Part shown: positions 160 to 48,113 of the stretch, piece after piece
Numbering within the stretch: the first letter of the stretch is position 1
Layout of the letters: each line of letters begins with the position of its first letter
Source of the DNA: Eledone cirrhosa
Lineage: Eukaryota
Direction: 5' to 3'
Assembly: GCA_964016885.1 (NCBI GenBank)
Contig: OZ024763.1
Location: forward strand, 12,338,001 to 12,402,000
Length of the DNA stretch: 64,000 bases
Program-made: the position numbers and the translations under genes
Notes under the pieces: generated by a model
Database searches by the model: none
Seen by the model: the letters and a program-made list of their open reading frames with translations, nothing else
Told to the model about the DNA's origin: nothing

Positions 160-331
160 TAGTTATGTAATAAACAACATAAGATAATTAATTCATTTAC
201 CAGTGGTTTCTTGAAGACAGATATATCTGTCTTCAGTCGTCATAACGAAAACGACTGAAGACAGATATATCTGCCTTCAAGAAACCACTGGTAAATGAAT
301 TAATTATCTTATGTTGTTTATTACATAACTA
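160..331. mobile_element. Fold-back insertion of HHR-bearing PLE-like family A
   Basis: Arms 160-240 and 251-331 with 1 mismatch and a 10-nt spacer. The minus arm reads tttcgtt-ATGACGA-c-tgaagacagat/atctgtcttca-a-GAAA-cc-act-gg-TA-aatgaat. Same family as 6751-6845. Confidence 0.8.
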
Positions 332-387
332 AAAAGCTCTGTAGCCTACATAGAGCACTCTCTTTTCCTTTGCCTTTCCTACGGAAA

Positions 388-1040
388 TACTTCATTTATA
401 TATATTTGAATGTGTATGTATGTATATATGTGTGTATATATGCATATAAATATATATATTTGAATATATATGTATGTATGTATATGTATATATAAGCATA
501 TAAATATATATATATTTGAATATGTATGTATATGTATATATAAGCATATAAATATATATATATGAATATGTATGTATATGTATATATAAGCATATAAATA
601 TATATATTTGAATATGTATGTATATATGTATATATTTGAATATGTATGTATATGTACATATATGCATATAAATATATATATATGAATATGTGTATATATA
701 TGCGTGCGTGTGCATATACATATATATATATGTGTATATTTGTGTATGTATGTGTATATATATACGCACACACACATATATATCGATATAAATATATATA
801 TTTGCATATGTTTATGTACACAAGCACATACATATCCATATATATATATATATATATATATATATATATATATATGTATGTATATAAGACTGCACTATAA
901 TCCGCCTCCATTCCCACACCTGCGTACTTTGTATACATGTTTGTGTATGCATATATTATACACTCTACCCCTATCGTTGTGTGTATATATATATATATAT
1001 ATATATATATATATATATATATATATATATATATATACAC
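388..1040. repeat. TA/TG compound microsatellite
   Basis: (TA)n with tatatttgaatatg and gcatataaa units. Confidence 0.9.
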
Positions 1041-1358
1041 ACACAGCCCTTTTTGTACCCTTTACGTAATCTAGCTTCCTTCTTAACCTCGCACACACAA
1101 ACACACAGCCCTTTGGTGAGACTTCCATTACCAGTGATGGAGGCGTGTAGTAGCTACCAACACTACACTACACCTCTAGTGCAGCATGGGAGCATACAGC
1201 ATCTATTGTCTGCATTTGTTATTCAACAATGCACAATTGGCGCATGTGGCTTCATCAGCGGGTCTCCTTTCTCTCTCTCTCTCTCTCTCTCTCTCTCTCT
1301 CTATATATATATATATATATATATATATATATATATATATATATATATATATATATAT

Positions 1359-1640
1359 AACAAAGGAATTGTGGTAAGGAACCAGATGGACCATAACGTA
1401 CCAGAGTACTCAATACTTAGGGTAGTAGAGTGGGAAATAGCAAAAAGTATGACCCCGACGGCAGAGCTCAAGCCGTTTCGACGGCTATTTCAGTCTATTT
1501 GAGTCCTGAAATAGCCGTCGAAACGGCTTGAGCTCTGCCGTCGGGGTCATACTTTTTGCTATTTCCCACTCTACTACCCTAAGTATTGAGTACTCTGGTA
1601 CGTTATGGTCCATCTGGTTCCTTACCACAATTCCTTTGTT
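1359..1640. mobile_element. Perfect fold-back of family B (HHR 3' half plus about 100-nt tail) inside (TA)n
   Basis: Identical 135-bp arms 1359-1493 and 1506-1640 with a 12-nt spacer. Each arm carries GAAA-cggc-ttgagctct-gccg-TC-ggggtca. Confidence 0.9.
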
Positions 1641-2171
1641 ATATATATATATATATATATATATATATATATAAACACATCAAACAATTACAGGGGATAA
1701 TTTGTAAAGAGTCTACACACACAGTTATGGAGGTAACATATTGAAATTTAACGATAACCTTGAATATAGATACCTGGCAATAATGATTAATCTCCTTTGT
1801 ATATATTCCATTGAAGAAATATATCTCACCATTGTGTCCCCTCTTTCTCTCTCTTCATTCCCCCCCCCCTTTTTTTTCCTTTCTTTCTCTCACTCTCTCT
1901 CTCTCTCTCTCTATCTCGCTCTTTCTCTCTATATCTCTCTTTCTCTGCAATAAGTCAGTCGTGCTCCAACCTGCAGTTCAACCCTTTAGCAATTACACTA
2001 GCCATATCCGCCCGGAATTCTCTTACCTTCTTCTGTTCAAACCGGCCATAACTAGCTGGTCATACTGATGTTAAGGTATTGTTCTCAAAATCAATAATAA
2101 CATCATCAAAATCCTGTAGATTCGATATTATGTGAGGTAAAGCCTTTACTGAAAATATACAGTAGTAGAGT

Positions 2172-44092: not shown

Positions 44093-44225
44093 AGGAACTG
44101 ATTCTGGCTTGATTTCTACAGCTGGATGCCCTTCCTAACACCAACCTCATTTACAGTGAGTGTTGGGTGCTTTTTTTCTCGTGGCGCCATGTCCACTTTA
44201 CAGTGAGTGCTGGGTGCTTTTTTGC
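44093..44225. mobile_element. Dispersed repeat gctggatgcccttcctaacaccaacc (also 47258-47320)
   Basis: Near-identical about 65-bp match, each copy adjoining an RTE-type tail. Confidence 0.7.
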
Positions 44226-45859
44226 CGTGGCACCTCCATGACCACTTTGCAGTGGGGAGAGGGGGAACATATTGTCTATATGCTTCGGCTTCGGCTTGGG
44301 AGGGCTCTTCAGTTGTGTCAAAGACATGACAACCTCTCTAGTGCTGGTGGTGTGATATATTGCACTTGTAGGGAGTGGAACAGTATGTAAGCAAAATGTG
44401 AATCTCTGGGATGTCTGCAGCCCCAATTTAGTACTGACTCGGTCTGGGAGGACCCATCTAACTGTTGCCCTAGTTCTTGTTAGGACATCATTCTAGGAGA
44501 AGAAAATCTCTGATGTAAAACCTGTGGGTCAATGGCAGCCAATGATATTGACCTGTTGTTGAGAGAGTGGGATTGGTTCAGTGCAAGATCTTCATTTAAA
44601 AAAACTTCAATCAGAGGGATCACTTGATCTCTGTATTGCACGATCATGGCCTTTCCTTTTTTTTCTTTTGAAAATAACCAAAGTCCTTGGCGAGGCTAAA
44701 AGGTCATGTTTATGCCACCCAATGTATGAGAAAAAGGTCATGGGATGGTAATTCTGGAAACTGAGATGCAACAAGAACTAGGGCCTCTGCTACTCCTGAT
44801 GGGTTAACCACGTGCTTGTATCTGAGAGATATGAGGTTTGATTCCTCATAGCAGCCAAGCCAATGGCAACTTCTTTTTCCGTCTTTTTTATAAGCTATCT
44901 TATAGCATCTCCAAATATGAGCACTTCATTATATATATATATATATATATATATATATATATATATATATATATATATATATATATATATTGTTATACTG
45001 GGGGAGGGGGGGGTCATATTGTTATAATGTTGCCAGAAATAATAATAAAACACACTCACTGTTTGGTTTGTATTACAATACAACGGGAGGAAGCATAATA
45101 GTATCACTGGTGATGTCGCAGGTGTGTGATGAAAGAACTTTGATAGACTATATATCTATATTTTTAACCATTGATTGCCAGCTGAATTAACTATGGAGAT
45201 ATAAAAGATACAGAAGCGAAAACCAATCCATTATTTCTGGCAATATTATAACAATATGACCCTCCCCAAGTGTAACAACATATGTTTCAACACAGGATTT
45301 CATATCAAAAACCTTGCAAAACGTATTATATATATATCGGGTTAAAGACAACCTAGCACTGTTAGGACAATGTAGACTATTAGCAAATTATTTAATCACC
45401 CTGACCTTGAAACTAATGAACTGTGTAAACAGCTAGTGACTAAATGTACTAACTGTACTAACCACACACACTATATTATGTTGTGGGTGTGACACCTGTA
45501 ATAGTATAGTAGCTAACTGTACTAATTACACCTATTGTATTCTAGTGTCACCTCTGTAATACTATATATATATATGTGTGTGTGTGAGAGTGTATATATA
45601 TGTATATATGTGCGTGTGTATGTATATGTATATGTGTATGTATATATATATGTATGTGTGTGTATGGATAAATGTGTGTATATATGTGTGTGTGTATGTG
45701 TGTGTGTATATATATATATATATGTGTGTGTGTGTATATATATATATATGTGTATGTGTGTGTATATATATATATGTGTATGTATATGTGTATGGATATA
45801 TGTGTGTATGTGTAGGCTCTTAACTAATTTGACATGACTCCACCTCAAATTTCTTTCAA

Positions 45860-46670
45860 CACACATATATACACAGATACATATATACACAGATGTATAT
45901 ATACACAGATGCATATATACACAGATATATATATTCACAGATGCATATATACACAGATGCATATATACACAGATATATATATATACACAGATATATATAT
46001 ATACACAGATACATATATACACAGATGCATATATACACAGATGCATATATACACAGATATATATATTCACAGATGCATATATACACAGATGCATATATAC
46101 ACAGATATATATATATATACACAGATATATATATACACAGATACATATATATACAGATACATATATATACACAGATACATATATACACAGATACATATAT
46201 ACACATACATATATATACACAGATACATATACAGATTTACACATACATATATATACACAGATACATATATACACAGATACATATACAGATTTACACATAC
46301 ATATATATATACACAGATACATATATACACAGATACATATACAGATTTACACATACATATATATATACACAGATACATATATATACACAGATACATATAT
46401 ACACAGATACATATATACACAGATGCATATATACACAGATACATATATACACAGATACATATATGTACAGATATATATATACACACATATATATATATAC
46501 ACAGATACATATATACACATACATATATATACACATACATATATACACAGATACATATATATATACACAGATACATATATATATACACAGATACATATAT
46601 ACACAGATACATATACAGATTTACACATACATATATATACACAGATACATATATACACACACACACACAT
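45860..46670. repeat. acacagat(ac/gc)atatat minisatellite
   Basis: Direct inspection. Confidence 0.9.
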
Positions 46671-47923
46671 ATTATACACAGGCATACACACACAAACACA
46701 TATACACAGACACTCAGGCACACACTCACATGTATATACATGTATGCACATACACTCAAGGCACACACATATACACACACAAAGTAAGGCATTCGCTGAC
46801 ACTCTCACACAGGCACTCAGGAATTCATACTCACACATACATGCATTCACATACTCCTATACATGTAGACACACGCATACATTGACATACTGACGCATAC
46901 ATGTGGTATATAACTCCTCCGCCTTAAATTCCTCTCAACACACACATGTATATATATGTGTATATATATATATATATATATATAATGTATAAACACACTC
47001 ATACACATGCATAAACACACTCATACACATGCACACACATCCCACACACATATACACACACATCCACCCGCACGTGCCAGTGCCCAAATTAATGCATACA
47101 TTTGCACATTCCTTTTTAAGTTCAAACATTCTGTGTATGTGTGGCTATGTTGTGTTTATACGTATATGGTAAATGCATCAGTTAACACACACACACACAT
47201 ATATCATCATCATTTCATTTTACGTCCGCTTTTTCCCTGCTTGCAAGGGTGGGACGGGAACTGATTCTGGCTTGATTTCTACAGCTGGATGCCCTTCCTA
47301 ACACCAACCTCATTTACAGTGAGAGTGGTGGGTGGTTTTTTGCAGTGGAATGATATGGACCCCAGTCCTATCATCTCATTTCTACAGCTGAGTAAACTGG
47401 AGCAATGTGAAATAAAGTGTCTTGCTCAAGACGATGGTGGTGAGTTGGAAGGTGGTCACAGGGTCAAGGACTACAGAAGTCTCCATTCCTAGTTCAAGCA
47501 AATAGAGAAAAAGTTTTTAAATAAATTTCAAAAAATTTCACTGTACTTACTATATGTGCCTTTATCGCGGTTTCTGATCCCCAAATAAACAGATAATCCA
47601 AGCGGATTTCATTGAGAAAGAGATCATCATCAGAAGGCTTTTCTCACTCAGAGAATATAAAATTCTCAAGTTCAAATCACAAACTGGCGCCACACACAAT
47701 TGTTCTCGAATGAGAGTGAATGAGAGATGAAACAATTCTGTCTGGTACCATGTGCAAAAGCAAAGGCTAGGTGGACAGGTCAATGTACTGCTACTCCCTC
47801 TTTGTTCTACCGGCAAGTTCAGCCACCCTTACCCCTCACCAAATGCCATGATAGATTTATCTGTCTTTACAACAAATTTTTGACCAATCCTCTTGACAAT
47901 TACTATCTTCCCATATAAGGAAA

Positions 47924-48113
47924 TAACCCCCGAGAAGTTCGGCTATTTATTTACCAGGCTAAAAATTCTTATTTAGTCCAGAAATAGCCGTCGAAATGGC
48001 TTGAGCTCAGCCGTCAGGGTCATACTTGTTCCTATTACCCACTCTACTACCCTAAGTATTGAGTACCTTGGTGCGTTATGGTCCATCTGGTTCCTTACCA
48101 CAATTCCTTCGTT
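47924..48113 (+). mobile_element. Non-inverted family B copy retaining the complete (core-mutated) hammerhead
   Basis: taaccc-CCGAGAA-gttcggctattt..ggctaaa/tttagtc..aaatagccgtc-GAAA-tggcttgagctcagccg-TC-agggtca, plus a tail ending in (TA)n. Confidence 0.75.

What the first reader, a model, noticed from the sequence alone, without database searches (positions are those of the whole stretch)
160..48113. Fold-back retro-insertions whose inversion points fall inside a hammerhead ribozyme, across five unrelated families
Seen: about ten inverted-repeat insertions (160-331, 1359-1640, 4409-4547, 5143-5329, 5396-5564, 8670-8863, 9104-9178, 22943-23049, 24724-24904, 40641-40759). In each, the arms carry the HHR 3' half (GAAA, stem III, NUH, stem I') pointing outward. 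The turn-around lies in stem II or within a few nt of the core. Families A, B, C, D and H share no sequence apart from the core. Known: PLEs and non-LTR retrozymes carry minimal type I HHRs, and Penelope insertions often have inverted pLTRs. Inference: reverse transcription stalls or snaps back at the ribozyme helix or cleaved 5' end and self-primes the second strand, so the ribozyme fold sets the shape of the insertion. I know of no description of this breakpoint rule, though it may exist.
Basis: partly seen in the sequence, partly recalled or inferred. Interest (0 to 1): 0.9.

Follow-up and report, generated by a model that had tools for sequence, protein, structure and literature searches.

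The report
Penelope retroelement twin run-off fold-backs
These short hairpin-shaped insertions are two head-to-head copies of the front end of Penelope-type jumping genes, and the copies likely stop where the element's RNA begins (its likely transcription start, which in some families lies in or beside a hammerhead ribozyme motif and in others far from it), not where the ribozyme fold would stall copying.

Summary
The fold-backs are real: 9 of 10 are inverted repeats, and strand-switch joints occur in raw reads. They are insertions of Penelope-like elements (PLEs) in (TA)n. Family B's full 3.1-kb unit has the Hydra-clade motifs, and A, D, E, F lie beside homologous RT, so the families are related. 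Each family has a hammerhead (HHR) motif. The breakpoint rule is not general. Arms end inside stem II in B (106/163 within 16 nt) and at the HHR 5' edge in D (47/71), but upstream of it in E (71/101) and A (45/77). There is no peak at the cleavage site, and single-arm copies stop at the same base. That base is a purine after a pyrimidine, about 30 nt below a TATA-like box (D 6/7, B 9/13). It often carries an untemplated G (B 17/100, E 18/100, control 2/100). Best reading: two cDNAs, primed from both DNA ends at the element's two initiation sites (one short plus one long arm in 93/103 pairs), run off the capped RNA 5' end and are joined. Snap-back fails for 38/93 pairs. The architecture is published, and this scan noted it before in other genomes. 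I found the start-site rule in no paper. No RNA data tested it.

The parts
160..250 (-). Family A short arm (ends at the short initiation site, runs through the HHR to about 8 nt above the core)
251..397 (+). Family A long arm with tail; starts inside the core (+3); GAAA at 281, stem III, predicted cleavage after 293
1359..1492 (-). Family B long arm, inverted; stops 12 nt above GAAA
1501..1640 (+). Family B long arm starting at the inferred +1 A (1502), preceded by a G (1501) where long copies have T; GAAA 1520, predicted cleavage after 1542
4409..4547 (.). Old family C fold-back: left arm stops at GAAA, right arm holds the whole HHR (core 4470-4476, GAAA 4508)
4974..5135 (.).
5143..5329 (.). 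Family B subfamily 3 fold-back; both arms stop at about +1/+2 (junction about 5200)
5396..5564 (.). Family B subfamily 2: long arm to about +2, short arm starting in the stem III loop (5537)
6744..6845 (+). Family A single-arm copy with whole HHR (core 6762)
8670..8863 (.). Family B fold-back, long plus short arm, junction 8802-8810 in stem II
9104..9178 (.). Family B head-to-head join of a tail fragment and a short arm that share no sequence; incompatible with snap-back
22943..23099 (.). Family D fold-back, short plus long arm, both stop 4 nt above GAAA with a 7-nt repeated insert
24724..24904 (.). Family B: long arm stops at GAAA, short arm starts at the inferred +1 A (24845); the short arm reaches further 5'
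40568..40808 (.). Old family H fold-back, U3-A8 core at 40712; left arm runs 24 nt past the core
47797..48113 (+). Long single-arm B copy showing the native upstream: core variant 47930-47936, TATA-like TATTTAT 47944-47950, inferred +1 A 47975
57061..57243 (-). Family E single-arm copy starting at its stop site about 85 nt above a canonical HHR core (other E copies at 23105-23290 and 35816-36190; bounds approximate)

Best explanation
Each fold-back is two 5'-truncated copies of a Hydra-type Penelope-like element joined head to head in a (TA)n target, likely made as two separately primed cDNAs that in families B, D and E mostly ran off the likely capped 5' end of the element's RNA. Steps: (1) shown: the arms end at one of two fixed 3' sites, and a pair almost always has one short and one long arm. 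(2) From the literature, for a lizard PLE in vitro: the protein cuts and extends both DNA strands and starts at two internal sites that bound the tail. (3) Inferred: on a transcript that starts in the pseudo-LTR these sites lie only about 45-220 nt from the RNA 5' end, so most cDNAs reach it and sometimes add a C opposite the cap. (4) Inferred: the two free cDNA ends are trimmed and joined by microhomology, template jumping or short templated inserts; if one cDNA is lost, a single-arm mini-copy results. (5) Inferred: copies that pass the stop site come from the downstream pseudo-LTR of a tandem RNA and break anywhere over kilobases. The HHR marks the breakpoint only where it overlaps the start site: in B the start lies in stem II, in D at the first base of stem I, and in E it is 83-89 nt away.
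For: Sharp family-specific stop with an empty zone above it: B 106 of 163 arms in 16 nt; D 47 of 71 in 15 nt and 0 ends over the next 35 nt. Single-arm TA-joined B copies: 832 at the stop base against 243 at a control base 4 nt inside. Untemplated G directly before the stop base: B 17 of the first 100 listed and E 18 of 100. Control 2 of 100 (2 of 53 once rows with the native letter are removed; Fisher p 0.02 and 0.01). 0 of 19 local TA-joined arms ending elsewhere have it. Long B copies have T there in 100 of 100. D: G in 15 of 17 arms cut at that base, 10 of 12 after removing 5 explained by the partner arm; the native letter is C in 7 of 8 long copies. An extra G is the known mark of cap copying in L1 (PMC11702581, PMC9341517). 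TATA-like box starting at -29 to -32: D 6 of 7, B 9 of 13 true long copies. In D. virilis Penelope the start site is in the pseudo-LTR about 120 nt above the HHR (PMC2377424, PMC4209133). One short plus one long arm: B 93 of 103, A 25 of 28, D 21 of 23. Short arm reaches further 5' in 38 of 93 B pairs; 29 of 103 are not nested. 50 different junctions among 70 B fold-backs, so events are largely independent.
Against: No RNA data: no 5' end was observed. The G is present in only 17-18% of TA-joined copies, about 5-fold over background, and C is also about 2-fold up. Among rows ending ATATATAT the G:C ratio (37:4) is near the genomic 6.7:1, so that comparison alone does not support the cap. Families A and H show broad ends with no single stop base and no clear G. 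A has a TATA-like box and initiator-like motif at the HHR edge, yet most arms pass it. E (0 of 11) and F (0 of 18) have no TATA-like box at -30, and F has a second cluster near -52. For several D subfamilies no long copy was sampled, so a native G there is not excluded. Both arms belong to the same subfamily in 36 of 36 typed B1/B2 pairs, which fits one RNA copied twice but also fits snap-back. Later deletions at palindrome centres could make some pairs asymmetric.
Confidence: 0.65

Rival explanations
1. RT stalls at the folded hammerhead, and the two cDNAs are then joined; the fold sets the breakpoint.
For: 135 of 163 B arms and 58 of 71 D arms end inside the HHR or within 5 nt of it. B's stem II is a long hairpin (-28.7 kcal/mol, z -2.4). 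Earlier scan notes in other genomes also saw arms stopping just before the ribozyme (unchecked).
Against: E, A, H and J stop mostly upstream. D stops after all helices of a weak fold are passed. The extra G and TATA spacing sit on the stop base in B and D, and the same G marks E's stop 83-89 nt away.
Confidence: 0.13
2. One cDNA snaps back on itself, or an antisense RNA self-primes (as proposed in PMC3846280), and copies itself into a palindrome.
For: Junctions are often short palindromes. Arms are of the same subfamily in 36 of 36 typed pairs. A few D copies look joined through stem I complementarity (L085).
Against: The short arm reaches further 5' than the long arm in 38 of 93 B pairs, and 29 of 103 B and 13 of 28 A pairs are not nested. 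In 5 of 70 B junctions both arms are complete to the stop base. The native stem II loop is missing from fold-backs.
Confidence: 0.07
3. The fixed end is an uncapped RNA end (processing, or short non-autonomous master copies transcribed from that base), not the promoter of the full element.
For: Several D subfamilies and family K have no long copy in the sample. One B3 junction recurs (6 of 70; enriched by my query). RT can add untemplated bases at any RNA end.
Against: B1/B2 have 5964 long arms with the same stop base 29-31 nt below a TATA-like box. G rather than A dominates the extra base. Junctions are diverse. No peak at the HHR cleavage site.
Confidence: 0.12
4. Long palindromes were trimmed after insertion, or are assembly chimeras, and the breakpoints reflect stability.
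For: Long palindromes are unstable (established knowledge, recalled).
Against: Single-arm copies stop at the same base. Short and long arms stop at one position despite different lengths. Joints are present in raw reads. Head-to-head pairs up to 4.3 kb apart persist.
Confidence: 0.03

Closest known systems
Insertion unit of EN+ Penelope-like elements (Craig et al. 2021, PMC8557442; Arkhipova et al. 2013, PMC3846280)
   Same: 5'-truncated copy with an adjacent inverted 5'-truncated copy, tail at one end only, HHR in the pseudo-LTR, palindromes at the inverted junction, partial tandem full unit
   Different: Tails here are 60-80 nt rather than 30-40. Most insertions are ORF-free minis with a fixed 5' base. 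Those papers attribute the tail to EN resolution and the palindromes to self-priming; the arm geometry here argues against self-priming.
Hydra clade of C-terminal EN+ PLEs (PMC8557442, section 11)
   Same: Family B unit has RWR, DKT, CxCX5C linker, YIG, CxxC and CxH around E and N, (TA)n target, HHR; period 3096 bp
   Different: Slightly over the usual <3 kb; B and H use the U3-A8 core; no phylogeny with reference Hydra proteins was run
Poseidon PAc of Anolis in vitro (Frangieh et al. 2024, PMC11167929)
   Same: Two internal RT start sites bounding the tail, both strands cut and extended, AT-rich target, uncleaved RNA used as template
   Different: The parts I read do not treat 5' ends of copies, pairing of one short with one long arm, or cap copying; different clade
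L1 twin priming and full-length L1 with extra G (PMC11702581, PMC9341517)
   Same: Two priming events from the two DNA ends; extra G at a complete 5' end; end joining by microhomology
   Different: In L1 the inverted piece is a different, non-overlapping part of the RNA; here both cDNAs copy the same leader, so the arms overlap fully
Non-LTR retrozymes (bioRxiv 10.64898/2026.07.22.740005)
   Same: Short PLE-derived sequences with type I HHR
   Different: Retrozymes are head-to-tail arrays of whole HHR units; these are head-to-head pairs or solos, and B arms lack the HHR 5' half

Membership tests
Hydra-clade PLE (family B) | Single ORF with RT and C-terminal GIY-YIG endonuclease | tested here: met
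   RT pieces with YRDD, then NVIYQ...YIG; this copy is broken by stops and frameshifts; Pfam gave no hit on the two N-terminal pieces
Hydra-clade PLE (family B) | RWK motif and DKT in place of DKG | tested here: met
   RLRWR, HSDKT
Hydra-clade PLE (family B) | CxCX5C linker; CxxC and CxH around E and N; no CCHH | tested here: met
   CNCPDRSTC, CNLC..E..N..CKH; no CCHH pattern seen by eye in the EN frame
Hydra-clade PLE (family B) | (TA)n target, pseudo-LTR tandem, HHR | tested here: met
Hydra-clade PLE (family B) | Placement in the Hydra clade by RT phylogeny | not tested
   no reference Hydra proteins were fetched
PLE (families A, D, E, F) | HHR-tail region continues into a homologous RT ORF | tested here: met
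   tblastn of B ORF pieces hits loci downstream of A (L070, L144, L063, L071), D (L212), E (L043, L164), F (L025/L119); alignment; linkage judged from position
PLE (families C, H, J, K) | Linked RT ORF | not tested
   no ORF-bearing copy was sought; membership rests on HHR, tail and architecture only
Type I hammerhead ribozyme (PLE minimal type) | Core C3-U-G-A-N-G8-A or U3-A8 covariant, GAAA, NUH, three helices | tested here: met
   A, C, D, E, J canonical; B and H U3-A8. D: 95% of cells paired, two compensatory pairs in stem I, 13 related copies. Exceptions: 4 of 15 long B copies have C3 with A8; F has CAGAAGA
Type I hammerhead ribozyme (PLE minimal type) | Match to an Rfam hammerhead model | tested here: not met
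   0 matches at gathering score in 8 loci
Type I hammerhead ribozyme (PLE minimal type) | Self-cleavage | not testable with these tools
   needs an in vitro assay
Non-LTR retrozyme | Head-to-tail array with a whole HHR in each unit | tested here: not met
   head-to-head pairs and solos
RNA polymerase II start site at the stop base | Capped RNA 5' ends at that base | not testable with these tools
   no RNA run served; indirect signs

The most novel reading that the evidence does not exclude
A general PLE integration rule: one ribonucleoprotein primes both DNA ends, one at each of the two initiation sites, and copies the same capped 5' leader twice to run-off. Most PLE copies would then be twin strong-stop DNAs that record each family's transcription start in the genome. 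This would explain inverted pseudo-LTRs and the one-sided tail in one step. In family B the promoter splits the hammerhead, so the ribozyme could form only in read-through RNA at the downstream pseudo-LTR.
Probability: 0.45. Interest if true: 0.75.

Novelty: new variant of a known kind. Interest (0 to 1): 0.57.

Why it matters
How PLEs make inverted pseudo-LTRs and one-sided tails is open. Published ideas are antisense self-priming and endonuclease resolution, and the 2024 in vitro work stops at initiation. Family B alone has on the order of 100,000 insertions here (45 loci in 1.214 Mb, extrapolated; the sample includes the B-rich window). Three countable rules follow: a fixed stop base, an extra G, and one short plus one long arm. 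They favour twin priming with run-off and predict exact transcription starts that a 5' RACE can test. They also say that the ribozyme does not shape the insertion, and that its place relative to the promoter differs by family, which bears on what PLE hammerheads do.

Tried and rejected
Rfam: no hammerhead at gathering score in 8 loci; the window search showed only microsatellite-driven miRNA matches in the 150 rows displayed of 790. Pfam: nothing on two ORF pieces. The repeat finder was swamped by TA arrays. RNA evidence: no RNA holder listed, which is no evidence either way. Read depth in the RAD runs was rejected as a breakpoint measure because reads end at AATT sites at L009 1398, 1493 and 1625. 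Only the strand-switch joints and the contig depth (4.8 million at 1512-1525, 0.2 million at 1470-1483) were used; that contig run may be the assembly's own sample. HHR cleavage site as the template end: no peak. A single fold-back master for B3: the apparent identity of junctions came from my query, which began at that junction; both orientations occur. The G-versus-C count (59:41 in 100 listed) was not used as support, because many C are partner-templated and the flank background differs by phase. The -25 pile in B is partly BLAST over-extension into the partner arm. An HHR-free control family was not obtained: K has a tight 5' end but an unclear core and no long copy. Rows dropped before the counts: loci fetched with the family's own HHR-spanning query, 11 loci overlapping the window, satellite locus L180, arms cut by a locus edge, duplicates. 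One search kept the query-selected loci. Tallies are by eye on the first 100 listed rows of 432, 832, 243, 5964 and 225.
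Full report
OBSERVATION. The window is G000:C24:12338001-12402000 of a 3.0-Gb animal genome rich in TA microsatellites. Self-BLAST after masking confirms nine of the ten listed inverted repeats. The tenth, 9104-9178, is a head-to-head join of two pieces that share no sequence. 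The same scan on 1.214 Mb (the window plus 115 stretches of 10 kb) found 168 fold-backs; the three largest clusters are families B, D and a sixth family, E, with 20, 16 and 10 members. Raw Illumina reads from three runs laid on a natural B copy show opposite-strand joints; 10 of the 13 listed start at 1498-1504, and 24 further joints were not shown. Read depth in those RAD runs is confounded by AATT cut sites and was not used.

IDENTITY. A B copy that continues past the tail runs into an ORF. The unit repeats after 3096 bp and shows RLRWR, DKT, YRDD, a CxCX5C linker, YIG, and CxxC/CxH around E and N. These match the Hydra-clade diagnosis in PMC8557442 (section 11 read), as does the (TA)n target. 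That copy is broken, and no phylogeny was run. tblastn with its pieces hits loci next to A, D, E and F, and five such RT pieces are 42-46% identical to B. The families are therefore diverged relatives, not unrelated. C, H, J and K were not tied to an ORF.

RIBOZYMES. Long natural copies give the whole motif. A: CTGACGA, long stem II, GAAA, palindromic stem III. D: CTGATGA with two compensatory pairs in stem I among 13 related copies. C, E and J are canonical. B and H carry TTGANAA (11 of 15 long B copies; 4 have C3 with A8). This U3-A8 covariant is reported for Schistosoma PLEs in PMC4209133 (parts 1-2 of 4 read), which also notes HHR pairs on opposite strands 100-700 bp apart. Rfam does not recognise these motifs. 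Cleavage is untested.

BREAKPOINTS. 5' ends of arms were mapped against natural long copies in loci not chosen with the family's HHR (dropped rows are listed under Tried and rejected). B: 135 of 163 inside the HHR span, 106 within -27..-12 of GAAA. The stop rate is 0.118 per nt there, 0.003 around the cleavage site, 0.006 in the rest of the HHR above and 0 in the next 30 nt. D: 47 of 71 within -10..+4 of the core, none in -11..-45. F: 28 of 65 inside, 18 beyond -45. A: 45 of 77 upstream, broad. E: 71 of 101 upstream. H and J mostly stop 20-100 nt upstream or pass. The stop is also not tied to inversion. Genome-wide, 832 single-arm B copies are joined to TATATA at the stop base against 243 at a base 4 nt further in. 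Of the first 100 long B arms listed, 46 sit in head-to-head pairs 169-4328 bp apart.

WHAT THE STOP BASE IS. In B it is the A of TTAGTC, in D the purine opening stem I, and in E the A of TCACTA/CCACTA 83-89 nt above the core (23 of 30 loci measured). All three are a purine after a pyrimidine. A TATA-like box starts 29-32 nt upstream in 6 of 7 long D copies and 9 of 13 true long B copies, but in 0 of 11 E and 0 of 18 F rows. A G precedes the stop base in 17 of 100 TA-joined B copies and 18 of 100 E copies. The control base gives 2 of 100 (2 of 53 non-native rows), and 0 of 19 local arms ending elsewhere have it. Against direct TA joins this is about 0.25, with a genomic background of 0.05. Long B copies have T there in 100 of 100. 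In D, 15 of 17 arms cut at that base have G, 10 of 12 after removing partner-templated cases. An extra G at a complete 5' junction is the known mark of cap copying in L1 (passages of PMC11702581 and PMC9341517). Against: most copies lack the G, C is also somewhat raised, the G:C comparison is near background, some D subfamilies have no long copy, and A and H show no single stop. In D. virilis the start is in the pseudo-LTR, 46 bp above a 75-bp intron that ends at helix I (PMC2377424, part 2 of 4 and passages), so a start near the HHR is expected for PLEs. An Inr-like TCACT with TATA in a rotifer pseudo-LTR is noted in PMC3846280 (passages). The Inr consensus itself is recalled, not from a call.

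ONE cDNA OR TWO. Arms end 3' at a short or a long site about 60-80 nt apart, the PLE tail. PMC11167929 (parts 1-2 of 4 read) shows in vitro that these are two RT start sites and that both DNA strands are cut and extended. Here pairs have one short and one long arm in 93 of 103 B, 25 of 28 A and 21 of 23 D cases, far from independent choice. Snap-back of the long cDNA requires the long arm to reach at least as far 5' as the short arm. The short arm reaches further in 38 of 93 B pairs, and 29 of 103 are not nested. In 5 of 70 B junctions both arms are complete to the stop base, and there are 50 distinct junctions, several with short templated repeats. Arms share subfamily letters in 36 of 36 typed pairs, with one B1/2-B3 mismatch among all pairs, so both cDNAs come from one source, perhaps one RNA.

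MECHANISM. Shown: geometry, stop bases, extra G, pairing. Inferred: twin target-primed synthesis, run-off at a capped start, and end joining. The HHR coincides with the breakpoint where it overlaps the start. In B the start falls in stem II, whose 5' strand overlaps the TATA-like box, so RNA starting there would lack the ribozyme's 5' half.

KNOWN AND NEW. The inverted truncated copy, one-sided tail, HHR and TA targeting are published (PMC8557442, passages and sections 10-11). Self-priming was proposed in PMC3846280. Four earlier scan notes describe the same architecture in other genomes (unchecked AI notes); none came up for start-site or cap words. I found no statement of a start-site stop, cap G or short-long pairing for PLEs in eight searches of the open library. 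Older subscription papers and all supplements were not seen. Also looked at: bioRxiv 10.64898/2026.07.22.740005 (part 1 of 5 and passages), PMC3681739 (passages), PMC3088659 (search listing only).

VERDICT. A real feature with known elements and known architecture. The proposed ribozyme rule fails as a general rule. A better-supported and directly testable rule, run-off at the RNA start with paired priming, takes its place. Interest 0.57; new variant of a known kind.

Noticed in passing
L180:3500-9950: Tandem satellite of about 64-bp units, over 90 copies, built from the tail region of family H; RT-like ORF pieces lie at L180:2229-2909
   Followed up: no
L088:5599-5780; L218:5774-5869; L340:738: Family K fold-backs share a very tight 5' end (11 of 11 arm rows within about 5 nt) with an unclear hammerhead core; in L340 the upstream reads like a tRNA B-box (recalled motif)
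   Followed up: partly
window 8430-8620 (-): Family J copy whose hammerhead core was deleted between two short direct repeats; J is a further HHR-bearing family with a long distance from HHR to tail
   Followed up: partly
all families, tails: Tails of A, B, D, E and F share a short GAGYRC-like motif, seen by eye; a candidate protein-binding signal between the two initiation sites
   Followed up: no
L308 about 1500: Two B arms, each complete to the stop base, are separated by a TA run, with a G before the second
   Followed up: partly
L197:5784; window about 5020-5045 (-): Family F keeps CAGAAGA (U4 changed to A) in nearly all copies, an unusual core; second cluster of 5' ends near -52
   Followed up: partly
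L225:692-1287: A whole D fold-back is itself duplicated in inverted orientation across a TA run
   Followed up: no
window 5143-5564; 8622-8863; L191:5814-6224; L233:216-663: PLE minis nest into each other's TA flanks, forming clusters and larger chance inverted repeats
   Followed up: no
window 18800-22300: 3.5-kb complex TA/TG microsatellite array
   Followed up: no
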